Origin: an archaeon | GTDB lineage: Archaea > Iainarchaeota > Iainarchaeia > Iainarchaeales > CSSED10-239 | NCBI GenBank assembly: GCA_035357435.1 | Contig: DAOPNM010000025.1 | Coordinates: 1-7,353, forward strand | Direction of reading: 5' to 3' | Length of the DNA stretch: 7,353 nt | Shown: positions 1 to 7,353 of the stretch, piece after piece | Position numbering within the stretch: the stretch's first letter is position 1 | How the letters are laid out: every line of letters starts with the position of its first letter | Program-made: the position numbers and the translations under genes | Notes under the pieces: model-generated | Seen by the model: only the letters and a program-made list of their open reading frames with translations | Database searches by the model: none | What the model was told of the DNA's origin: nothing

Positions 1-467
1 AAACAATAACTCAACCAAGTTTAATAAATCTTGATTATGCAGATTTAAGAACTGTAATGGTTGGTAGAGGTTTAAGTGTTATTGCTGTTGGTGAAAGTCA
101 ATCTGCAAATAGAGTTGATGAAGTTGTTGAAGATACCTTAAATAATTTGTTATTAGATGTTGAAGTAACTGGTGCTACTGGTTGTTTAATACACATTACA
201 GGTGGTTCTGATTTAACATTAGGTGATGCAAATAGAGTAGGTGAATTATTAACTGAACAAATAGATCCAAATGCAGATGTAATTTGGGGTGCAAGACATG
301 ATCCAACATTTGATAATAAAATAGAAGTAATTGCAATCTTTGCAGGTGTTAAATCACCATATATCAAAGGAAGTACAAAATATACAGGAAAATCAAGTGT
401 TTCTGGATCTAAAAGTTCTTATTCATCAGCATCATATGATTCAGATTATGATTTAGCACGCTTATAA
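1..467 (+). CDS. ftsZ: Cell division GTPase FtsZ, C-terminal portion (5' end lies outside the window; reading frame begins at base 3)
   Basis: The frame is open from base 3 and translates TITQPSLINLDYADLRTVM before the listed Met at 57. LINLDYADLRTVM corresponds to the FtsZ T7-loop motif (GLINVDFADVRTVM type, with the N-x-D-x-x-D residues kept). It is followed by IAVGES...LLDVEVTGATGCLIHITGG.DLTL.....V.......DPNADVIWGA...D......EVIAIFAGV, which is typical of the FtsZ C-terminal domain. The protein ends in a S/Y/D-rich low-complexity linker and a short terminal peptide. Stop codon TAA at 465-467. Confidence 0.85.
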   Translation, partial: TITQPSLINLDYADLRTVMVGRGLSVIAVGESQSANRVDEVVEDTLNNLLLDVEVTGATGCLIHITGGSDLTLGDANRVGELLTEQIDPNADVIWGARHDPTFDNKIEVIAIFAGVKSPYIKGSTKYTGKSSVSGSKSSYSSASYDSDYDLARL

Positions 468-546: not shown

Positions 547-818
547 ATAATGGTTTGTGTTTAGTAAACTTCTTTTTTTGTAGAAATGCAAAAAAGAGGT
601 TAGGAAAGTCCACCCACCATTTAATTTTAAAAAACTTCTTAATGGAAGTATCTCTTGCACAGAAACAAGACGGCTTTAAATCAATATAAAGAATGATGTG
701 TAGAGCAGACAAGATTTAAAGAGAGGCTGAAAACTGCAAGAGTGAGGTGCAAGGAGAAACCTCTCCGCTTAGACAAATTACTATTTACTACAGAAGGTGG
801 CTTATAGCAAACCATTAT
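547..818 (+). ncRNA. rnpB: RNase P RNA (compact, ~272 nt)
   Basis: The universal conserved regions are readable. aggaaagtccaccc (602-615) is CR-I (GAGGAAAGUCC). gcacagaaacaag (657-669) matches the ACAGAAA-type J-region. ttagacaaatta...ctacagaaggtggcttatag (769-807) is CR-V (ACAGAAnCCGGCUUAU). The P4 helix forms between aagTccacc (606-614) and ggtggctt (796-803) with the conserved bulged U (t609). P1 closes the molecule: ataatggtttg (547-557) pairs with caaaccattat (808-818). An internal helix forms between gagagg (721-726) and cctctc (760-765). The region is locally GC-enriched and has no ORF. Confidence 0.88.
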
Positions 819-871: not shown

Positions 872-1558
872 ATGCCTTATAAAAAACCAATAAATTATAA
901 AACACCTAAGGAAGTAGTAGAATCTACGCCTAAAATAAAAAAAAAAGAAGCAATTTTTACAAAAGGGAATGGCCCGTTTTTAGAATATGAAGAAATTAGT
1001 ACTAAACGAAGAAAACATAATGTAATATATTCTGGAAATAAATTAAAAAATAAATTATATCACACTCATATTCAATATCAAAAAAAAATAAATTCTTCAG
1101 CATTTCCTTCTATTCAAGATTTAACAGTTTTTTTTTTAGACAGATCTTTAAGAGATATTTCTTATGAAGCAATTTTCGTAATTGATGAAAAAACAGGTAA
1201 AAACATTGGTAGGAGTGTTTATACATTTACACCAAAAACAGATAAAGTAATTAGTAATTTATTAGAGAAATATAATGATATGTTTTCTAAAAAAAAATCA
1301 GATAGTATAATATATAATATTTTTCAAAATTATGATGATTCAACTATTAAAAAATTATTAGATCCTGATCCTAATAGCAATCAACTTCTTAAAAAAAAAA
1401 TTTTGTTTAAAGAAATTTTAGAAGATAAGCATAAAAATTCAAGTAGTATCCATGATTTTTATGATTTTTTAATTAATGATCTTGGCATAAAAATTAGATT
1501 TGTGCCAATGCCTGGTTATAAATTTAATAAAGAAACATTTAGATTTGAAAAAAAATAA
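872..1558 (+). CDS. Hypothetical protein, paralog 1 of a 4-member tandem family; putative JAB/MPN (JAMM)-like metallohydrolase
   Basis: 228-aa ORF. Conserved E26 (KKKEAIF), H64-x-H66 (LYHTHIQ) and S80-x-x-D83 (FPSIQD), followed by the family-invariant IFVIDEKTGKNIGR hairpin and the C-terminal DLGIKIRFVPMPGYKFNKETFRFEKK. No signal peptide or TM segment. Confidence 0.6.
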   Translation: MPYKKPINYKTPKEVVESTPKIKKKEAIFTKGNGPFLEYEEISTKRRKHNVIYSGNKLKNKLYHTHIQYQKKINSSAFPSIQDLTVFFLDRSLRDISYEAIFVIDEKTGKNIGRSVYTFTPKTDKVISNLLEKYNDMFSKKKSDSIIYNIFQNYDDSTIKKLLDPDPNSNQLLKKKILFKEILEDKHKNSSSIHDFYDFLINDLGIKIRFVPMPGYKFNKETFRFEKK

Positions 1559-1740
1559 AGTTGTAGTACATACTTTTTTTATGTTTTTTTTATGTTTTTA
1601 ATAGATTTCTTTTTAAAGTAATTGTTTCTAATATTTTTGTGATGTCTTATGCCATATCTTAAACCATCTGGTTATAAAATTCCAAAAGAAGTTGTTGAGC
1701 ATACACCTGACATAAAAAAAAAAGAAGCAGTTTTTACAAA
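1496..1740 (+). repeat. Near-identical 245-nt patch, copy A (3' end of paralog 1, intergenic module, first 92 nt of paralog 2)
   Basis: By direct reading it matches 3063-3306 with one substitution (a/g in the gaaaaaaaataa / gagaaaaaataa stretch) and one T8/T7 length difference. Confidence 0.9.
1559..1648 (+). promoter_or_regulatory. Repeated intergenic module (T-tract terminators plus TATA-like promoter) between paralogs 1 and 2
   Basis: T7 (1574-1580) and T8 (1584-1591) runs follow the stop codon. tttttaaag lies at 1610-1618, 39 nt before the ATG at 1649. The module is nearly identical to 3126-3214 and similar to 2348-2441. Confidence 0.5.
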
Positions 1741-2347
1741 GAAAAAAGGTCCATTTTCAAAATTTAAGCAAATAGGGTTTGACCGTAAAAAAAATTGGAT
1801 TGACTATTTCCCATCAGATATAAAAGATAGGTTATATCATACACATATCCAATCAAAAGATTGGAAAGTTTATTTTATATGTACGCCATCTATTATAGAT
1901 TTAATTTCTTATTATACAGAACGAAAGACAAACAATATTCCAATTCAAGGAATATTTGTTATTGATGAGAAAACAGGGAAGAATATTGGTAGAACATTTT
2001 ATATGTTTACTGATAAAACAGATAAGATTATAGATGATTTATATAAAAGGTATAAAAAAGTTGTTTCTAAAAAAGAATCTGATCCATTTATTAAAAATTT
2101 ATTACTAAATTGTGATGAAGATACAAAGAAACTTTTAGAATCAAATACTGATACAGATGTTTTTCAAAAAAAACAAATTTTGTTTCAACTTTTGTTAGAG
2201 CAAAAAACTAATCAAAACACTAATGTGGTTTTATCTAAAAAAGAATATTATGATATATTGACTAAAGATTTAGGTATAAAGATAAGGTTTGTGTCAATGC
2301 CTGGTTATAAATTTAATAAAGAAAAATTTATATTTGAGAAAAAATAA
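1649..2347 (+). CDS. Hypothetical protein, paralog 2; putative JAB/MPN-like metallohydrolase
   Basis: 232-aa ORF with E26, H64-x-H66, S81-x-x-D84 (ICTPSIID), GIFVIDEKTGKNIGRTFY and the C-terminal DLGIKIRFVSMPGYKFNKEKFIFEKK. Confidence 0.6.
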   Translation: MPYLKPSGYKIPKEVVEHTPDIKKKEAVFTKKKGPFSKFKQIGFDRKKNWIDYFPSDIKDRLYHTHIQSKDWKVYFICTPSIIDLISYYTERKTNNIPIQGIFVIDEKTGKNIGRTFYMFTDKTDKIIDDLYKRYKKVVSKKESDPFIKNLLLNCDEDTKKLLESNTDTDVFQKKQILFQLLLEQKTNQNTNVVLSKKEYYDILTKDLGIKIRFVSMPGYKFNKEKFIFEKK

Positions 2348-2441
2348 AAAGTTGTAATGTGTTATTTTTGTTTTATGTTTTTTTATATTTTTAATAGATT
2401 TCTTTTTAAAGTAATTGTTTCTAATATTTTTGTGATATCTT
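2348..2441 (+). promoter_or_regulatory. Repeated intergenic module between paralogs 2 and 3
   Basis: T-runs follow the stop codon. tttttaaag lies at 2403-2411, 39 nt before the ATG at 2442. The last ~60 nt match the other modules almost exactly. Confidence 0.5.
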
Positions 2442-3125
2442 ATGTCATATCCTAAACCGCGTGGTTATAAAATTCCAAAAGATGTTATTGAGTCTACATC
2501 AAATATTAACAAAAAAGAAGCAGTATTTACAAAAAAAAAAGACCCATTTTCAAAATTGAAACAAATTGGAATTAATCGTGAGAAAAATTCTGTGGATTAT
2601 TATTCTGGTAATGTAAAAGATAGATTATATCATACGCATGTACAATCAATTGATGAATATTATTTTATGTGTATGCCCTCTGTTACAGATTTAATTTCTT
2701 ATTATAAACAAAGAAAAAAAAATAATATACCTATTCAAGGAATATTTATTATCGATGAAAAAACTGGCAAAAATATAGGTAGAACATTTTTTACATTTAC
2801 AAATAATACAGAAAAAATTATTGATACTTTATATAAAAGGTATAAAAAGTTTATTTCAAAAAATGAAGATGATTCATTAATTAAGGAATTATTATTTACT
2901 AGTGATAGTTCTGCTATAAAAATATTAACCTCTAATGTTGGTTCTAATGTTTTTCAAAAAAAACAAATTTTGTTTCAACTTTTTTTGAATAAAAAAATGA
3001 ATGATAACCAATCAGAAAGGAGACGTTATGATATATTAACTAAAGACTTGGGCATAAAGATAAGATTTGTGCCAATGCCTGGTTATAAATTTAATAAAGA
3101 AACATTTAGATTTGAGAAAAAATAA
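2442..3125 (+). CDS. Hypothetical protein, paralog 3; putative JAB/MPN-like metallohydrolase
   Basis: 227-aa ORF with E26 (NKKEAVF), H64-x-H66 (LYHTHVQ), S80-x-x-D83 (MCMPSVTD), GIFIIDEKTGKNIGRTFF and a C-terminus identical to paralog 1. Confidence 0.6.
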   Translation: MSYPKPRGYKIPKDVIESTSNINKKEAVFTKKKDPFSKLKQIGINREKNSVDYYSGNVKDRLYHTHVQSIDEYYFMCMPSVTDLISYYKQRKKNNIPIQGIFIIDEKTGKNIGRTFFTFTNNTEKIIDTLYKRYKKFISKNEDDSLIKELLFTSDSSAIKILTSNVGSNVFQKKQILFQLFLNKKMNDNQSERRRYDILTKDLGIKIRFVPMPGYKFNKETFRFEKK

Positions 3126-3306
3126 AGTTGTAGTACATACTTTTTTTATGTTTTTTTATGTTTTTAATAGATTTCTTTTTAAAGTAATTGTTTCTAATAT
3201 TTTTGTGATGTCTTATGCCATATCTTAAACCATCTGGTTATAAAATTCCAAAAGAAGTTGTTGAGCATACACCTGACATAAAAAAAAAAGAAGCAGTTTT
3301 TACAAA
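3063..3306 (+). repeat. Near-identical 244-nt patch, copy B (3' end of paralog 3, intergenic module, first 92 nt of paralog 4)
   Basis: See copy A. Identity drops sharply on both sides of the patch. Confidence 0.9.
3126..3214 (+). promoter_or_regulatory. Repeated intergenic module between paralogs 3 and 4
   Basis: T7 runs follow the stop codon. tttttaaag lies at 3176-3184, 39 nt before the ATG at 3215. It differs from 1559-1648 by a single T-run length change. Confidence 0.5.
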
Positions 3307-3901
3307 AAAGAATGCTCCGTTTTCAGAATTAGAAAAAATTAATGGTATTGCTACAAAAGATTCAGTTGAATTTAATTCTCATTTTTTAAAAGATCGTTTT
3401 TATCATACACATATTCAACCAAAAAATATAAAGGCTAGTTATATATGTATGCCTTCTTGGGAAGATATTGTTAGTCATTTTAATCAAAAAAAAGGTCGTA
3501 AAATGTACATTTCAGGAATATTTATTATTGATGAAAAAACTGGAAAGAATATTGGCAGAACATTTTATACATTTACAGATAAAACAGATAAACTTATTGA
3601 TAATTTATATGAAAGATATAAAAAGTTTATTTCTAAAGATGCAGAAGATTCATTAATTAAGGAATTATTATTAAATTGTGATGAATATACAAAAAAACTT
3701 TTAGAATCAAATATTGTTTCTGATGTTTTACATAAGAAACGGATTTTGTTGCAGCTTTTTTTAAAACAAAAATTGAATAACAAATTGTCTATAAAAGAAT
3801 ATTATAATGTGTTAACTAAAGATCTAGGTATAAAGATAAGATTTGTACCAATGCCTGGTTATAAGTTTAATAAAAATAAATTATTGTTTGAAAAAGAATG
3901 A
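3215..3901 (+). CDS. Hypothetical protein, paralog 4 (mosaic of paralog 2-like and 3-like segments); putative JAB/MPN-like metallohydrolase
   Basis: 228-aa ORF with E26, H64-x-H66 (FYHTHIQ), S81-x-x-D84 (ICMPSWED) and GIFIIDEKTGKNIGRTFY. It ends in TGA, whereas the other three end in TAA. Confidence 0.6.
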   Translation: MPYLKPSGYKIPKEVVEHTPDIKKKEAVFTKKNAPFSELEKINGIATKDSVEFNSHFLKDRFYHTHIQPKNIKASYICMPSWEDIVSHFNQKKGRKMYISGIFIIDEKTGKNIGRTFYTFTDKTDKLIDNLYERYKKFISKDAEDSLIKELLLNCDEYTKKLLESNIVSDVLHKKRILLQLFLKQKLNNKLSIKEYYNVLTKDLGIKIRFVPMPGYKFNKNKLLFEKE

Positions 3902-3919: not shown

Positions 3920-4351
3920 ATGGAAGAATATATACAATTTATTTCAAATCTTAAAAATTTTACATCAGTAAAAAAAATGAAAATAACCTCTGAAACTACA
4001 AATACAGATGTTGTTGAATTTTTAGCTTCTGTACAATTAAGTACAAATACAAAAATACGTGAATATCTAGAAAAAATAATTGATATAAAAAAATTAGAAG
4101 ATCAAACAAAATATTTATTTGATTTAGATTTTAATAATTTTTTTAAAGAACTAAAATCTTCAAAGTTAAAAAAAATTATTTTAGATCTTCTACCTCAAAC
4201 AATGGATAAAGCTTACAAAGATGCATTTTTAGAAAGTTATTATGTTTATTTAATAGAAAAATATTTTAAATTAAAAGAGATATCAATTGGTTATCATCAA
4301 ATACTTTATCCTACAAGAAAGAAACAATTAAAAAAGATAATTAAGGGATAG
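3920..4351 (+). CDS. Hypothetical small protein (143 aa), K/E/L-rich and probably all-helical
   Basis: The ORF starts 19 nt after the paralog 4 stop. It is preceded by aaaggag (3901-3907), the only clear SD-like site in the + strand cluster, which suggests co-transcription with paralog 4. No motif recognised. Confidence 0.55.
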   Translation: MEEYIQFISNLKNFTSVKKMKITSETTNTDVVEFLASVQLSTNTKIREYLEKIIDIKKLEDQTKYLFDLDFNNFFKELKSSKLKKIILDLLPQTMDKAYKDAFLESYYVYLIEKYFKLKEISIGYHQILYPTRKKQLKKIIKG

Positions 4352-4392
4352 TATTTATATTTTTTGCTATAGTAATATATTAAATGTGTCTA

Positions 4393-4530
4393 CCCTCCTT
4401 AGCACAGCGGTTAGTGCGTCCGGCTGTAGACTGTTTGTAGATACTGTGAGTATGTTTGTTTTTTATAAGAAAGACAAAACTACAAAAGGCAGTAACCGGA
4501 AGATCCCCAGTCCGAATCTGGGAGGAGGGA
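4393..4530 (+). tRNA. tRNA-Tyr (anticodon GTA at 4426-4428) with a 65-nt intron (4430-4494) at the canonical 37/38 position; no encoded CCA
   Basis: A full cloverleaf is readable. Acceptor: ccctcct (4393-4399) with aggaggg (4523-4529). D arm: gcac/gtgc (4402-4405 / 4414-4417) with loop agcggtta. Anticodon stem: tccgg (4419-4423) with ccgga (4496-4500). Anticodon loop: ctgtag|a. Variable loop: agatc. T arm: cccag/ctggg (4506-4510 / 4518-4522). Discriminator: A4530. C1-G72 is the archaeal/eukaryal tyrosine identity pair. The splice sites sit in a bulge-helix-bulge: a 4-bp central helix (4424-4427 with 4489-4492) is flanked by the 3-nt bulges a-g|a (4428-4430) and t-a|a (4493-4495), and the outer helix is 4434-4440 with 4480-4486. 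A possible TATA (tttatat, 4354-4360) lies upstream. Confidence 0.9.
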
Positions 4531-4562
4531 TTACACTCAATATAAATTTTGAATGTTGATTA

Positions 4563-4583: not shown

Positions 4584-5177
4584 TTATTTTCTATTATGCA
4601 TTTTTCTTGAAAAAATTGTAATTGTATAACCTTGTAGATCTGCTCTTAGTTTTGCTGTATTTTTAAGGTCATATTTTACATATTTTGATTTTTGTGTTCT
4701 TGTTTTTTCTCCTGGTTTATTTGTTAATGGTCTTTTGCCAACTATTTTTTCATTTATTTTTTGCATTTCTTCTAAGGCGTTTCCATGAATTTTTTCAACA
4801 TTATATTTTGCTCTTAAATCTGAAATTAGTCGTATTTTTAATTTTAAGCCAATTCCTTTTTTTCTATATTTTATTTTAACAAATAAATGATCAACTACAA
4901 ATTCTTTATTTATATTATTTCCCATTTTTTCTATAAACATGTGCCCATTTGCAGATGCTGCGAGTTCGTTTCCTACATACACTAAATATATAATATATGG
5001 GGTAATTTTGTTGTTTATATTTTTTTCCCACAATTGGGCATATCTATTGAATTCCATTTCATTTGTATTATCTACAAATGGGTCTATTTTGAATATTTCT
5101 TTGAGTAACTCTGGTGTTAATTCGTGTCTATTTTTATAAGTTATTTTTTTATATGTAATTTTTTCATTTTTATTCAT
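4584..5177 (-). CDS. GNAT-family N-acetyltransferase-like protein, paralog 1 (most divergent)
   Basis: GNAT motif A is readable: DHLFVKIKY-RKKGIG-LKLKIRLISDL, i.e. a beta strand, R-x-x-G-x-G, then a helix. A motif B-like segment GNALEEMQKINEKIVG follows. The start is placed at the ATG at 5175-5177 (MNKNEKITYKKITYKNRHELTPELLKEI) because it aligns exactly with the start of paralog 2. The ORF track's upstream Met (5186) adds only MNN. Confidence 0.65.
   Translation of the reverse strand: MNKNEKITYKKITYKNRHELTPELLKEIFKIDPFVDNTNEMEFNRYAQLWEKNINNKITPYIIYLVYVGNELAASANGHMFIEKMGNNINKEFVVDHLFVKIKYRKKGIGLKLKIRLISDLRAKYNVEKIHGNALEEMQKINEKIVGKRPLTNKPGEKTRTQKSKYVKYDLKNTAKLRADLQGYTITIFSRKMHNRK
5093..5177 (-). 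repeat. 85-nt near-identical patch shared by the 5' ends of GNAT paralogs 1 and 2, copy A
   Basis: It matches 5821-5905 with a single mismatch (t5100 versus c5828), although the two genes are otherwise strongly diverged. Confidence 0.9.
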
Positions 5178-5329
5178 ATTGTTCACTATTTATTGTAGAT
5201 TATATGTATTTTTTAGTATAAATCTGTTTTTAATAGTGTTGTTTTGGATTTTCTATAATGTTTATAATAATTTATAACAAAAATTTGTTGTAAAAAATAA
5301 AGTTTAATCTAAAATTTATTATTGTTTAA

Positions 5330-5905
5330 CTATTTAGGTCTATTTTTTCTTTTAATAATTATTTTTTGTTCTTTTGTAGAACTATCTAATTTTGTTGAAC
5401 TAATTGTATATGCTACTCTTTCTGATTTTTGTGTTCTATATGTTCCATCTGGCAATGGCCTTTCTCCTGCTATTTTTTCATTGATTTTCTGCATTTCCTT
5501 TAATGACCAACTTCTTATTTTATTTATTTGTTTATAATTTTTTCTAATATCTGCAATCAAATATGTTTTTAATTTATATGCAAGTCCTTGTTTTTGAAAT
5601 TTGTCTTTAACAAATAAGTGGGACACATAAAATTCATCATCTTCTATGTATCCATCAGCCATGCCTGCAAATTCATTATTTACATATACAAGGTATATAC
5701 TATATGATAATATTTTTGATTCTATTTTAGCATATTGTTCCCTTTCAAATTGTTCAAATCGTATCCTGTCATATTGTTCATGGTTTTTGTTTGCATTATT
5801 TTTAAAAGGATTATGAATATATATTTCCTTGAGTAACTCTGGTGTTAATTCGTGTCTATTTTTATAAGTTATTTTTTTATATGTAATTTTTTCATTTTTA
5901 TTCAT
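5330..5905 (-). CDS. GNAT-family N-acetyltransferase-like protein, paralog 2
   Basis: 191 aa. Motif A reads SHLFVKDKF-QKQGLA-YKLKTYLIADIRKNY (Q-x-x-G-x-A). A motif B-like segment WSLKEMQKINEKIAG and a basic tail KIIIKRKNRPK follow. Stop codon TAG at 5330-5332. Confidence 0.65.
   Translation of the reverse strand: MNKNEKITYKKITYKNRHELTPELLKEIYIHNPFKNNANKNHEQYDRIRFEQFEREQYAKIESKILSYSIYLVYVNNEFAGMADGYIEDDEFYVSHLFVKDKFQKQGLAYKLKTYLIADIRKNYKQINKIRSWSLKEMQKINEKIAGERPLPDGTYRTQKSERVAYTISSTKLDSSTKEQKIIIKRKNRPK
5531..5632 (-). repeat. 102-nt perfectly identical block shared by GNAT paralogs 2 and 3 (motif A region), copy A
   Basis: By direct reading it is identical to 6226-6327. The flanking sequence is similar but carries scattered substitutions. 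Confidence 0.9.
5821..5905 (-). repeat. 85-nt near-identical patch, copy B
   Basis: See 5093-5177. Confidence 0.9.
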
Positions 5906-6024: not shown

Positions 6025-6591
6025 CTATTTAGGTTTATTTCTTCTTTTAATAATTATTTTTTGTTCTTTTGTAAAACTGTCTAATTTTGTTGAGCTAAAT
6101 GTATATGCCACCCTTTCTGATTTTTGTGTTCTATATGTCCCATCAGGTAATGGCCTTTTACCCATAATTTTTTCATTTATTTTCTGCATTTCCTTTAATG
6201 ACCAACTTGTTATTTCATTTACTTCTTTATAATTTTTTCTAATATCTGCAATCAAATATGTTTTTAATTTATATGCAAGTCCTTGTTTTTGAAATTTGTC
6301 TTTAACAAATAAGTGGGACACATAAAACTCATCATTTTGTATTCTTCCTTCTGCCATGCCTGCAAATTCATCATTTACATATACAACATACAGAAGATAA
6401 GATAATTTTTTTGAATCTATTTTAGCGTATTGTTCTCTTTCAAATTGTTCAAATGTTTTTGTTTTTTTATTGTTTGGTGTGTTTAAAAAAGGATTGTGAT
6501 CATATATCTCTTTAATTAATTCTGGTGTTAATTCATCTTTATTGTCATAAGTTATTTTTTTATATTTTATAGATATGTTTTTGTTAATCAT
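6025..6591 (-). CDS. GNAT-family N-acetyltransferase-like protein, paralog 3
   Basis: 188 aa. The motif A/B region is the same as in paralog 2, the C-terminal two thirds are very similar to paralog 2, and the N-terminus differs (MINKNISIKYKKITYDNKDELTPELIKEI). Confidence 0.65.
   Translation of the reverse strand: MINKNISIKYKKITYDNKDELTPELIKEIYDHNPFLNTPNNKKTKTFEQFEREQYAKIDSKKLSYLLYVVYVNDEFAGMAEGRIQNDEFYVSHLFVKDKFQKQGLAYKLKTYLIADIRKNYKEVNEITSWSLKEMQKINEKIMGKRPLPDGTYRTQKSERVAYTFSSTKLDSFTKEQKIIIKRRNKPK
6226..6327 (-). repeat. 102-nt perfectly identical block, copy B
   Basis: See 5531-5632. Confidence 0.9.
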
Positions 6592-6667: not shown

Positions 6668-7030
6668 TTATCCTTTTATAGTATCTATAATATATCTAAT
6701 AATATAGATTATTGTTGGGATAAAAATATACAATAATGCATGTCCTATTTCTTCAATCCAACCCCATTTTACAAAAAAATATATTCCAAGTATCCATCCA
6801 ACTATGTACCAAAAATTATATTTATGGTAATGATGAAGTATTAAGTATAAAGACACACTTATAACCATTATCTGTATAAATACGTCTGAAATAAGTTTTC
6901 GGCCTAACCATAAATATATTAAATTATCTAAAATGATTAATCCAAATGAGATAACTAACCCTAATATGATTTTAAATGTCAAATCCATTAATGCATGGAA
7001 TGCTGTTGTTTTTTTTTCATTTTTATTCAT
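6668..7030 (-). CDS. Small integral membrane protein (120 aa, about 4 TM helices), paralog A
   Basis: Four hydrophobic stretches follow a short polar N-terminus (MNKNEKKTT): ILGLVISFGLIIL..., FIQIMVISVSLYLIL, FWYIVGWILGIYFF and ALLYIFIPTIIYII. Its ATG overlaps the stop of the upstream paralog as ATGA (7027-7030). Confidence 0.6.
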   Translation of the reverse strand: MNKNEKKTTAFHALMDLTFKIILGLVISFGLIILDNLIYLWLGRKLISDVFIQIMVISVSLYLILHHYHKYNFWYIVGWILGIYFFVKWGWIEEIGHALLYIFIPTIIYIIRYIIDTIKG

Positions 7031-7353
7031 ATCTTTTCTATATTTTTGTTTAATATATTTTTAAATAAATATCTTCCAATCCAAATAATTGTTGGAACAA
7101 TTATTGCCAATAATGTAGAATTATATTTCATCAACCCCAATTTAAAAAACATATATGCACATATTATCCATCCGATAATATAAAAGAATGTAAATTTGTC
7201 ATTATGATATATTTGCATTATAATGGAATATACAAGAATAATTGTTGCTGTTGGGATCATTGAATTTAGGTTTATGTTAAAAAAAACATAAATTATATTA
7301 TTTATTGCAAGAACAATAAATGTTTTAACAAATCCTTTTACTGTGCCTATGAT
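7027..7353 (-). CDS. Small integral membrane protein, paralog B; 5' end probably outside the window
   Basis: The listed Met is at 7260, but the same frame stays open to the window edge. By hand translation 7353-7261 reads IIGTVKGFVKTFIVLAINNIIYVFFNINLNS. That extension aligns with TM1-TM2 of paralog A. The shared core is YH.(D/Y)(K/N)F..(F/W)YI(I/V)GWI......F.K.G........LL.I..PTII.I.RY. Confidence 0.55.
   Translation of the reverse strand: MIGTVKGFVKTFIVLAINNIIYVFFNINLNSMIPTATIILVYSIIMQIYHNDKFTFFYIIGWIICAYMFFKLGLMKYNSTLLAIIVPTIIWIGRYLFKNILNKNIEKI

What the first reader, a model, noticed from the sequence alone, without database searches (positions are those of the whole stretch)
872..3901. 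Four tandem paralogs carry a JAB/MPN (JAMM)-like metal-site signature with a non-canonical long spacer
All four ~228-aa proteins keep the same residues in the same order. These are Glu26 in a K-K-E-A-[IV]-F strand, His64-x-His66 in [LF]YHTH[IV]Q, and Ser-x-x-Asp (S80/81, D83/84) in PS[IVW][IQTE]D[LI]. A hydrophobic strand and an invariant hairpin, [AG]IF[VI]IDEKTGKNIGR, follow. The established JAMM motif is E-x(n)-H-x-H-x(7)-S-x(2)-D, with the same secondary-structure order after it. Here the H-to-S spacer is 13-14 residues, and the residue after the second His is I/V rather than the usual Pro. If the fold call is right, this is a divergent subfamily. The C-terminal ~110 residues form a variable helical region capped by the invariant DLGIKIRFV.MPGYKFNK, and I do not recognise that part at all. 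A 4-copy array of independently promoted JAB-like genes with no adjacent ubiquitin-like, E1-like or phage tail genes is not an arrangement I know from described systems.
Basis: partly seen in the sequence, partly recalled or inferred. Interest (0 to 1): 0.75.

Follow-up and report, generated by a model that had tools for sequence, protein, structure and literature searches.

The report
Unannotated archaeal JAB metallohydrolase gene array
Four side-by-side genes in an uncultivated, very AT-rich archaeon encode a previously unannotated branch of the JAB/MPN zinc-hydrolase superfamily (the fold of deubiquitinases and RadC); it keeps all the catalytic residues but has no ubiquitin-like partner nearby, so its fold is fairly clear and its substrate is unknown.

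Summary

The JAB/MPN+ reading is supported:
- Across 84 divergent relatives, Glu, His-x-His and Asp are kept in 80 and Ser in 72. About half read HTHP, and six have the canonical 7-residue H-to-S spacer.
- An AlphaFold model (pLDDT 94.7) puts each motif on the secondary-structure element expected for MPN.
- Foldseek's best PDB matches are BRCC36, Rpn11 and CSN5 (best E 4.5e-3, probability 0.93).
- Profile-profile comparison with RadC JAB domains gives 80% probability. This beats all 400 shuffles and a control between two accepted JAB families.

Caveats: no Pfam, NCBIfam or PDB-sequence hit reaches threshold, and I could not measure the metal-site geometry.

The "long spacer" is a loop insertion whose length varies across the family (6-38 residues). 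The "unrecognised" C-terminal half is a variable helical insertion (8-113 aa) followed by three conserved closing strands.

No Ubl, E1, phage or defence genes lie within 8-10 kb where the contigs reach that far; the array sits among housekeeping genes. It is a lineage-specific expansion with gene conversion. The substrate is unknown. This is a new family or variant within a known superfamily, of moderate interest.

The parts
872..1558 (+). Paralog 1 (228 aa): JAB/MPN+-like core, helical insertion and C-terminal strand motif
   Evidence: ORF; alignment; family HMM E 5e-56.
1649..2347 (+). Paralog 2 (232 aa), the protein modelled. Predicted elements: helix 12-17; strands 28-31, 43-46, 51-53 and 61-68; helix 82-95; strands 100-106 and 112-120; five helices spanning 122-207; strands 210-216, 220-223 and 228-231.
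   Evidence: pLDDT 94.7, pTM 0.90; Foldseek.
2442..3125 (+). Paralog 3 (227 aa)
3215..3901 (+). Paralog 4 (228 aa). Its 5' ~100 nt and its upstream unit are identical to those of paralog 2. It is frameshifted or truncated in one population (L020).
1061..1120 (+). Paralog 1 metal-site segment, H64-T-H66 ... P79-S80-x-x-D83; E26 is at 947-949
   Evidence: Read from the sequence. hhalign places HxH and PSxxD in register with RadC HNHP...PSxxD.
1838..1900 (+). Paralog 2 metal-site segment, H64-T-H66 ... P80-S81-x-x-D84; E26 is at 1724-1726
2631..2690 (+). Paralog 3 metal-site segment, H64-T-H66 ... S80-x-x-D83
3404..3466 (+). Paralog 4 metal-site segment, H64-T-H66 ... S81-x-x-D84
1559..1648 (+). 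Repeated intergenic unit. The others are at 2348-2441 and 3126-3214, with a partial copy at about 817-871. Each has T-runs after the stop codon, an invariant TTTTTAAAGTAAT box about 45 nt upstream of the ATG, and a GTGAT SD-like element. These are putative per-gene terminator, promoter and RBS signals (inferred).
   Evidence: Alignment A4, 83% mean column identity; sliding identity.
3920..4351 (+). 143-aa DUF2666-like gene. It lies downstream of the array in all 7 close lineages with enough sequence, but is absent next to divergent single-copy family members. Functional linkage is uncertain.
   Evidence: Pfam DUF2666 E 7e-7; neighbourhood clustering; HMM scan of further loci.

Best explanation
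Each of the four genes encodes a single-domain metal-dependent hydrolase of the JAB/MPN+ (JAMM, MEROPS M67-like) superfamily. They belong to a small family, so far unannotated, found in uncultivated AT-rich archaea.

Inferred mechanism, by analogy with solved JAMM enzymes: His64, His66 and Asp83/84 bind one Zn2+. Glu26 activates the metal-bound water. Ser80/81, at the N-cap of the following helix, helps stabilise the tetrahedral intermediate.

Family-specific elaborations on the MPN core:
- the 13-14-residue stretch between HxH and SxxD, which is a loop insertion;
- the ~85-residue five-helix segment, which is a variable insertion and probably decides substrate or partner recognition;
- the invariant GIKIRFVPMPGYKFNK strands, which I read as part of the same domain.

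The most likely chemistry is hydrolysis of an amide (peptide or isopeptide) bond on a substrate that is not encoded nearby. A classical operon-linked ubiquitin-like system is not indicated.

The four copies arose by lineage-specific tandem duplication of a gene-plus-upstream unit. They are still exchanging sequence by gene conversion.

Shown: the ORFs, the conservation, the fold similarity, the genomic context and the duplication pattern. Inferred: metal binding, catalysis and substrate class.
For: - Motif conservation: E/H/H/D is kept in 80 of 84 family representatives and Ser in 72. About half have HTHP, and six have the canonical x7 spacer, for example HTHPGNHVFPSSID.
- AF2 model, pLDDT 94.7: E26 lies just before strand 28-31, HxH in strand 61-68, and SxxD at the start of helix 82-95, followed by a beta-hairpin at 100-120. 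This is the MPN order.
- Foldseek PDB: BRCC36 E 4.5e-3, probability 0.93; Rpn11, CSN5 and eIF3h dominate the list.
- Foldseek BFVD: an annotated 'MPN family protein' and phage RadC proteins at probability 0.85-0.87.
- Pfam: Prok-JAB E 0.006-0.04 for members with short spacers, and DUF4329 (= Tox-JAB-2 per PMC3482391) E 0.001 for the family consensus. The accepted JAB protein YicR/RadC hits Prok-JAB only at E 0.0011, so this level is normal between JAB families.
- hhalign against RadC JAB: probability 80.4, E 1.3e-5. The score of 33.8 exceeds 200 column shuffles (maximum 18.2) and 200 block shuffles (maximum 29.2). The Mec-versus-RadC control gives probability 35.5.
- Insertion: the helical segment varies from 8 to 113 aa across the family, while the flanking core and C-terminal motif are conserved. 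Among the four window copies, identity is 50% in the helical part, 57% in the core and 86% in the C-terminal motif.
- Duplication and conversion: the four copies cluster together in an NJ tree. Copies 2 and 4 are 100% identical over ~200 nt but 47-60% identical further in.
Against: - No hit reaches a curated threshold in Pfam or NCBIfam.
- Profile searches of PDB sequences find no JAB protein.
- All Foldseek E-values are above 1e-3 and TM-scores are only ~0.3.
- Much of the hhalign score comes from the short motif blocks (block-shuffle median 20, maximum 29), and only 38 columns align.
- The spatial convergence of E26/H64/H66/D84 was not measured.
- No substrate, Ubl, E1 or E2 gene is linked. 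The amide-hydrolase chemistry therefore rests only on what the characterised JAMM enzymes do.
Confidence: 0.62

Rival explanations
1. The proteins are JAB-fold nucleases, or other enzymes acting on nucleic acids. This has been proposed from context for RadC-like and Tox-JAB-1/2 domains. The same metal site would hydrolyse phosphodiester bonds, and the basic N-terminus and helical insertion would bind DNA or RNA.
For: - The best profile-profile match is to RadC JAB (probability 80%).
- The family consensus hits DUF4329/Tox-JAB-2, which shares the E, H[ST]H, S, D signature (PMC3482391).
- PMC3482391 argues that JAB clades lacking Ubl partners may be nucleases.
- There is no Ubl system nearby.
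- N-termini are Lys/Arg-rich across the family.
- Neighbours are often nucleic-acid enzymes: FEN1 is directly upstream in L015 and L022, and TK, a DEAD helicase and RNase P RNA also occur nearby.
Against: - The literature read here offers only contextual inference for nuclease activity of any JAB domain, not a demonstration.
- No HhH or other recognised nucleic-acid-binding domain was found.
- Lys-richness is expected in a 23% GC genome.
- The neighbourhoods look like general synteny among housekeeping genes.
- The RadC template was simply the most diverse one I could build, so a higher score against RadC than against Mec is not evidence of closer kinship.
Confidence: 0.2
2. The proteins are conventional Ubl-specific JAMM isopeptidases or processing peptidases, like HvJAMM1, CsRpn11 or Mec. 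They would act on SAMP/MoaD/ThiS-type modifiers encoded elsewhere in the genome.
For: - The complete MPN+ catalytic set is present.
- The nearest PDB folds are deubiquitinases.
- Every experimentally characterised JAMM activity in the papers found here is cleavage after a Ubl C-terminus (PMC4443979 and PMC6043591, listed).
Against: - No ThiF/E1, E2, MoaD/ThiS-like gene, and no ORF ending in Gly-Gly, was found in any held locus covering 8 lineages.
- The Glu-to-HxH segment is short (mode 36-37 residues).
- Four fast-diverging paralogs in a ~1 Mb-class genome are not what a single housekeeping deconjugase would look like.
- Only 7-20 kb was examined per genome, so a distant Ubl system is not excluded.
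Confidence: 0.13
3. The motif is coincidental, or the proteins are catalytically dead scaffolds. In this reading the fold is not JAB, or the His/Asp residues serve a structural role only.
For: All database similarities are sub-threshold. Isolated sub-threshold hits to other families appear, including Lactamase_B_6, Peptidase_M54 and PD-(D/E)XK in BFVD.
Against: - Those alternative hits are not recurrent across members, and their signature motifs are absent.
- The JAMM residues are among the few near-invariant columns over 84 sequences.
- Scaffold MPN- proteins characteristically lose these residues; only one member, P0056, has done so.
- Structure, motif order and profile-profile evidence all point to JAB.
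Confidence: 0.05

Closest known systems
Prokaryotic JAB / M67 JAMM peptidases (Pfam Prok-JAB PF14464; e.g. M. tuberculosis Mec/CysO-cysteine peptidase, archaeal HvJAMM1)
   Same: E...HxH...PSxxD signature in the same order, on the same kinds of secondary-structure elements. Small stand-alone proteins. Recurrent though sub-threshold Pfam hits. hhalign register with a Mec profile.
   Different: - Scores are 14-17 bits against a cutoff of 25.
- The H-to-S spacer is 13-14 residues here (6-38 in the family) instead of 7.
- There is a large helical insertion and a conserved R-F-V-P-M-P-G-Y-K-F-N C-terminal motif.
- No Ubl or E1 neighbour is present.
- The genes are tandemly amplified.
RadC-like JAB domain (Pfam PF04002; E. 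coli YicR, phage RadC)
   Same: Best profile-profile match: probability 80%, E 1.3e-5 over HxH, PSxxD, the helix and the next strand. Phage RadC models are among the Foldseek BFVD hits. Like RadC, the family has no Ubl partner.
   Different: No Pfam RadC hit. HTH[I/V/P] instead of the invariant HNHPSG. No N-terminal HhH region. The invariant RadC D-H after the strand is only partly matched (D106 is D in 45 of 84). The family is archaeal rather than bacterial or phage.
Tox-JAB-2 / DUF4329 (PF14220) toxin domains of polymorphic toxins and NCLDV/phage proteins (Zhang et al. 2012, PMC3482391)
   Same: Identical motif description, 'E, H[ST]H, S, D'. The family consensus hits DUF4329 at E 0.001. The best BFVD structural neighbours are uncharacterised giant-virus and phage proteins of similar size, and Tox-JAB-2 is reported in NCLDVs and phages.
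   Different: The score is 19.5 bits against a cutoff of 28.6. The proteins are not at the C-terminus of Rhs/T6SS toxins. There is no secretion signal and no immunity-gene pattern. The genes sit in the core chromosome among housekeeping genes. The identity of the BFVD top hits as Tox-JAB-2 was not verified.
Eukaryotic JAMM deubiquitinases BRCC36, Rpn11 and CSN5
   Same: Top Foldseek PDB hits. BRCC36 also combines an MPN+ core with C-terminal helices. MPN proteins work as homo- or heterodimers, which suggests that the tandem paralogs might co-assemble (inference).
   Different: About 10% sequence identity and TM ~0.3. No Ins-1-sized segment lies between Glu and HxH. The helical part here is an internal insertion followed by conserved strands, not a terminal coiled coil.

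Membership tests
JAB/MPN+ (JAMM) superfamily | Catalytic signature E-x(n)-H-x-H-x(7)-S-x(2)-D | tested here: met
   All residues are present in all four copies and in 72-80 of 84 relatives. The spacer is 13-14 residues here but 7 in six family members, so the deviation is a loop insertion.
JAB/MPN+ (JAMM) superfamily | MPN alpha/beta fold, with HxH on a strand and SxxD at the N-terminus of the next helix, followed by a beta-hairpin | tested here: met
   The AF2 model (pLDDT 94.7) shows this secondary-structure order. Foldseek PDB top hits are BRCC36, Rpn11 and CSN5, with best probability 0.93 and E 4.5e-3. The support is moderate rather than decisive: TM ~0.3 and no E below 1e-3.
JAB/MPN+ (JAMM) superfamily | Significant sequence-profile match to a curated JAB family model (JAB, Prok-JAB, RadC, DUF4329) | tested here: not met
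   The best hits are Prok-JAB at 16.9 bits (cutoff 25) and DUF4329 at 19.5 bits (cutoff 28.6). However, hhalign against my own RadC profile gives probability 80% and beats all shuffles, and RadC itself hits Prok-JAB at only 19.3 bits.
JAB/MPN+ (JAMM) superfamily | E, H, H and D side chains converge on one metal site in 3D | not testable with these tools
   The tools do not return model coordinates; only secondary structure and pLDDT are given.
JAB/MPN+ (JAMM) superfamily | Bound Zn2+ and metal-dependent hydrolase activity | not testable with these tools
   Requires biochemistry.
Ubl-linked JAMM isopeptidase systems (SAMP/JAMM1, Mec-CysO, Cap3, Rpn11-type) | Genomic or functional association with a beta-grasp modifier and an E1-like (ThiF) enzyme | tested here: not met
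   No ThiF, MoaD, ThiS or Ubl Pfam hit appears among the called genes up to 8-10 kb either side in 8 lineages. No ORF ends in GG. Whole genomes were not examined.
RadC-like JAB (PF04002) | Pfam RadC match with invariant HNHPSG...PSxxD...DH; an N-terminal HhH region in full-length RadC | tested here: not met
   No Pfam RadC hit. The motif is HTH[IVP], and the extra D-H is only partly conserved. The similarity is at superfamily level only.
Tox-JAB-2 / DUF4329 | Pfam DUF4329 match; C-terminal toxin module of Rhs/T6SS/T7SS polymorphic toxins with an adjacent immunity gene | tested here: not met
   The consensus-only hit is below the cutoff. The proteins are stand-alone, lack trafficking domains, and sit in a housekeeping context. 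The H[ST]H signature is shared.

The most novel reading that the evidence does not exclude
The family is a JAB hydrolase that does not act on Ubl conjugates. Its rapidly diversifying tandem paralogs would co-assemble through the variable helical insertion, as MPN proteins typically dimerise. They would remove a so-far undescribed acyl or peptidyl modification, possibly one written by the similarly amplified GNAT-like paralog array a few hundred bases away. Together these would form a writer/eraser pair specific to reduced-genome archaea.
Probability: 0.07. Interest if true: 0.7.

Novelty: new variant of a known kind. Interest (0 to 1): 0.4.

Why it matters
JAB/MPN enzymes are the metalloprotease arm of ubiquitin-like signalling, and they recur in phage defence (CBASS Cap3, Bil) and in toxin systems. 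This family adds several things:
- a branch that curated libraries (Pfam, NCBIfam, PADLOC, PHROGs) do not capture;
- confinement, as far as seen, to uncultivated archaea;
- a new insertion architecture and a strongly conserved C-terminal motif;
- no Ubl partner nearby.

That a small, streamlined genome keeps two to four diverging copies suggests selection for diversity in substrate or partner. Finding the substrate would bear on the open question of what 'orphan' JAB domains such as RadC and Tox-JAB actually cleave. Practically, the 84-sequence alignment could seed a new family model so that these 'hypothetical proteins' get annotated.

Tried and rejected
- **Direct library scans.** Pfam, NCBIfam, PADLOC and PHROGs scans of the window proteins gave nothing significant.
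- **PDB sequence searches.** Profile searches with A1, A3 and the N-terminal-only profile A6 found no JAB; the hits were noise such as glutamate racemase, AGAMOUS and EhpR.
- **First AF2 run.** With 11 sequences it left residues 1-58 disordered, and its Foldseek list was ambiguous. It was superseded by the 84-sequence run.
- **Related-locus scans.** With A2 it found no relatives in GTDB representative genomes or in IMG/VR. Only the metagenome scan gave loci.
- **Mec homologue search.** It returned only sequences more than 83% identical, which made a shallow template.
- **Tox-JAB-2 representative.** I tried to obtain one from Xanthomonas phage OP1, but no ORF was recognisable with my HMM or a motif scan. 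A direct profile comparison with DUF4329 was therefore not done.
- **Lambda K.** The annotated gene lacks the N-terminal half of its JAB domain, so I dropped it as a seed.
- **Taxonomy.** It could not be resolved beyond 'archaeon'. A DPANN-like affiliation is only an inference from 23% GC and a ~0.98 Mb contig.
- **Isolated sub-threshold Pfam hits.** DNA_pol3_beta, Lactamase_B_6, Peptidase_M54, Stanniocalcin and others were considered and rejected. Each occurs in only one or two members, and none of their signature motifs is present.
- **DUF2666 neighbour as functional partner.** It is conserved only within the close, syntenic lineage and is absent beside divergent members, so I treat it as synteny.

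Full report
**1. The observation**

The window is 7353 nt and ~23% GC. On the + strand it carries four intact ORFs at 872-1558, 1649-2347, 2442-3125 and 3215-3901, of 228, 232, 227 and 228 aa. They are 48-68% identical to one another.
- KKEA[IV]F with Glu26;
- YHTH[IV]Q with His64 and His66;
- PSxxD, with Ser80/Asp83 in copies 1 and 3 and Ser81/Asp84 in copies 2 and 4;
- IDEKTGKNIGR;
- DLGIKIRFV.MPGYKFNK.

The same four-copy array recurs at more than 99.4% identity in four independent public assemblies, so it is real. Public contigs often break inside it.

**2. A family, not just four genes**

A word-indexed search of 5.8 billion proteins found only nine relatives. All are unnamed or 'hypothetical protein [archaeon]', and none carries a Pfam domain. 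An exhaustive profile search of 1.84 billion cluster representatives found 83.

In the 84-sequence alignment the mean column identity is 11%. The invariant or nearly invariant columns are M1, E26, K31, H64, H66, P80, D84, G114, G219 and Y220.
- 80 of 84 sequences keep Glu/His/His/Asp, and 72 also keep Ser.
- Two of the four exceptions are N-terminally truncated.
- One, P0056, has degenerated to R..H..T..N.

The residue after the second His is Pro in 41 of 84. The His-to-Ser spacer ranges from 6 to 38 residues with a mode of 12. Six members have exactly the canonical seven, for example HTHPGNHVFPSSID and HTHPNLDAVPSLND. The window's 'non-canonical long spacer' and missing Pro are therefore lineage peculiarities within a family that also contains textbook JAMM motifs.

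**3. Fold**

With 11 sequences, AlphaFold left residues 1-58 disordered. With the 84-sequence alignment, the model of paralog 2 has pLDDT 94.7 and pTM 0.90. The element order is:
- helix 12-17;
- strands 28-31 (Glu26 just before it), 43-46 and 51-53;
- strand 61-68, carrying HxH;
- a loop at 69-81, which is the 'spacer' (mean pLDDT about 83 for residues 71-80);
- helix 82-95, with SxxD at its N-cap;
- hairpin 100-106 / 112-120;
- five helices across 122-207;
- strands 210-216, 220-223 and 228-231.

This is the MPN order up to residue 120.

Foldseek against the PDB gives no hit below E 1e-3, but JAMM/MPN proteins head and dominate the list:
- BRCC36 (5cw4_A): E 4.5e-3, probability 0.93.
- Many Rpn11, CSN5 and eIF3h chains, about 20 of the top 50. 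The chain identities were cross-checked.

Against predicted viral structures, the best matches are uncharacterised giant-virus and phage proteins of similar length (probability 0.94-0.99). They are followed by an 'MPN family protein' and several phage RadC proteins (probability 0.85-0.87).

**4. Sequence-profile evidence**

No curated model is reached. The only recurrent Pfam families are two JAB-type families, and they always align on the HxH...SxxD segment:
- Prok-JAB: 5 of 84 members, and E 0.006-0.04 for N-terminal domains with short spacers.
- DUF4329: E 0.001 for the family consensus.

Zhang et al. 2012 (PMC3482391) equate DUF4329 with Tox-JAB-2 and give its signature as 'E, H[ST]H, S, D'.

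As calibration, the accepted JAB domain of E. coli YicR/RadC hits Prok-JAB at only E 0.0011, 19 bits.

I then built a RadC JAB profile from YicR plus 12 diverse phage RadC domains. hhalign of the family's N-terminal profile against it gives probability 80.4%, E 1.3e-5. It aligns 38 columns, running from the HxH strand through PSxxD and the helix into the next strand. Controls:
- 200 column shuffles of the RadC alignment reach at most 18.2, against the real score of 33.8.
- 200 six-column block shuffles, which keep the motif blocks, reach 29.2.
- The reversed alignment scores 8.9.
- Two bona fide JAB families compared the same way (Mec against RadC) give only probability 35.5%.

The similarity is therefore real and at the level seen between JAB families. 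It rests largely on the motif segment. Profile searches against PDB sequences found no JAB.

**5. The C-terminal half**

Across the family, the segment between the hairpin and the C-terminal motif varies from 8 to 113 residues, with a median of 60. Among the four window copies it is the least conserved part: 50% mean identity, against 57% for the core and 86% for the C-terminal motif.

The motif [RK]-F-V-P-M-P-G-Y-K-F-N is nearly family-wide (G219 and Y220 in 80 of 84) and is modelled as three strands. I read the helical part as a variable insertion in a position comparable to Ins-2 of eukaryotic JAMMs (that comparison is from my own knowledge). I read the final strands as part of the core domain. 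This could not be checked without coordinates.

Some members append C-terminal transmembrane helices, and others have ~200-residue basic N-terminal extensions.

**6. Context**

The array lies between an FtsZ gene plus an RNase P RNA and a DUF2666-like gene. Wider flanks hold HisRS, AlaRS, an ABC transporter, radical-SAM and Memo/AMMECR1 genes, PLD, ProRS and DNA ligase.

In related metagenome loci the family occurs as arrays of 2-4. Divergent single copies sit beside FEN1, Rad50, EF-1beta, MCM, RPA and the CCA-adding enzyme.

No ThiF/E1, E2, MoaD/ThiS, phage or defence gene appears in any locus, and no ORF ends in Gly-Gly.

The DUF2666-like gene follows the array in all seven close lineages with enough sequence but is absent next to divergent members. 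I treat this as synteny, not a proven partnership.

No relatives were detected in GTDB representative genomes or IMG/VR with the motif patterns used. Taxonomy is only 'archaeon'.

**7. Evolution of the array**

Each gene carries its own ~90-nt upstream unit (83% mean column identity). The unit holds T-runs, an invariant TTTTTAAAGTAAT box and a GTGAT element. This is compatible with separate archaeal terminators, promoters and ribosome-binding sites, but it is unproven.

In an NJ tree the four copies cluster together, while older paralog clades exist in other genomes.

Copies 2 and 4 are 100% identical over ~200 nt (the upstream unit plus the first ~100 nt of coding sequence) and then drop to 47-60%. 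That is a gene-conversion or recombination mosaic. One population has a frameshifted copy 4.

**8. Interpretation**

The best-supported reading is an active (MPN+) JAB metallohydrolase family with lineage-specific insertions.
- Shown: conservation of the catalytic set, fold similarity, context and duplication history.
- Inferred: Zn binding by H64/H66/D84, Glu26 as general base, and amide-bond hydrolysis. The last is inferred because the characterised JAMM activities described in the papers read here are C-terminal Ubl cleavage (PMC4443979 and PMC6043591).

The missing Ubl context, and the closer resemblance to RadC and Tox-JAB-2, keep a nuclease-type function alive as the main rival (PMC3482391).

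**9. Novelty**

This is a new, unannotated family or variant inside a well-known superfamily, not a new kind of system. Interest is moderate. It stems from the orphan status of the family (no partner, no known substrate), the unusual insertion and C-terminal motif, and the amplification in a streamlined genome.

Noticed in passing
window 549-816 (+): Archaeal RNase P RNA. RF00373 scores 76.5 bits, below the 84-bit gathering score, with E 1.4e-21. The full model is matched in only 268 nt, with reduced peripheral helices. The default gathering run missed it. It ends 55 nt before paralog 1, so most of the 'intergenic' space upstream of the array is an RNA gene.
   Followed up: partly
window 4393-4530 (+): A tRNA gene with an intron of about 65 nt in the anticodon loop (RF00005, 48.4 bits, E 1e-9). 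The loop reads CU-GUA, so this is probably tRNA-Tyr(GUA). ARAGORN and the Rfam gathering run both missed it. The 57-aa 'ORF' at 4386-4559 is this tRNA.
   Followed up: partly
window 4584-5186, 5330-5905, 6025-6591 (-): A second tandem paralog array: three GNAT-like acetyltransferase genes (Pfam Acetyltransf_10/_1). Copies 2 and 3 are ~86% identical at the DNA level. Homologues lie near the JAB array in four lineages. Their co-amplification with the JAB genes is unexplained.
   Followed up: partly
window 1549-1750 vs 3115-3316: Copies 2 and 4 are 100% identical for ~200 nt (the upstream unit plus the first ~100 nt of coding sequence). They are only 47-60% identical in the next ~180 nt. This is a gene-conversion or recombination mosaic between non-adjacent paralogs.
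   Followed up: yes
window 3920-4351 (+): A 143-aa DUF2666-like protein (Pfam E 7e-7, N-terminal half only). It is single-copy, much better conserved than the JAB paralogs, and always lies downstream of the array in the close lineage (with thymidine kinase in between in five lineages). No literature on DUF2666 was found.
   Followed up: partly
window 6668-7030 and 7027-7260 (-): Two small paralogous multi-pass membrane proteins (120 and 77 aa called) whose genes overlap by 4 nt. They match no family.
   Followed up: no
window 57-467 (+): The C-terminal part of an FtsZ gene (Pfam FtsZ_C, E 1.9e-27). The full 368-aa gene is seen in L018.
   Followed up: yes
P0060, P0069, P0083; P0031, P0039 (family members from other metagenomes): Some family members carry one or two C-terminal transmembrane helices after the conserved ...FEK end, which would make them tail-anchored. 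Others carry ~200-aa basic N-terminal extensions with no recognisable domain.
   Followed up: partly
L004, L006, L019, L020: Public contigs frequently start or end inside the array, presumably because of the identical ~200-nt segments. In L020, copy 4 is called as a 150-aa fragment, which points to frameshift or indel variation between populations.
   Followed up: partly
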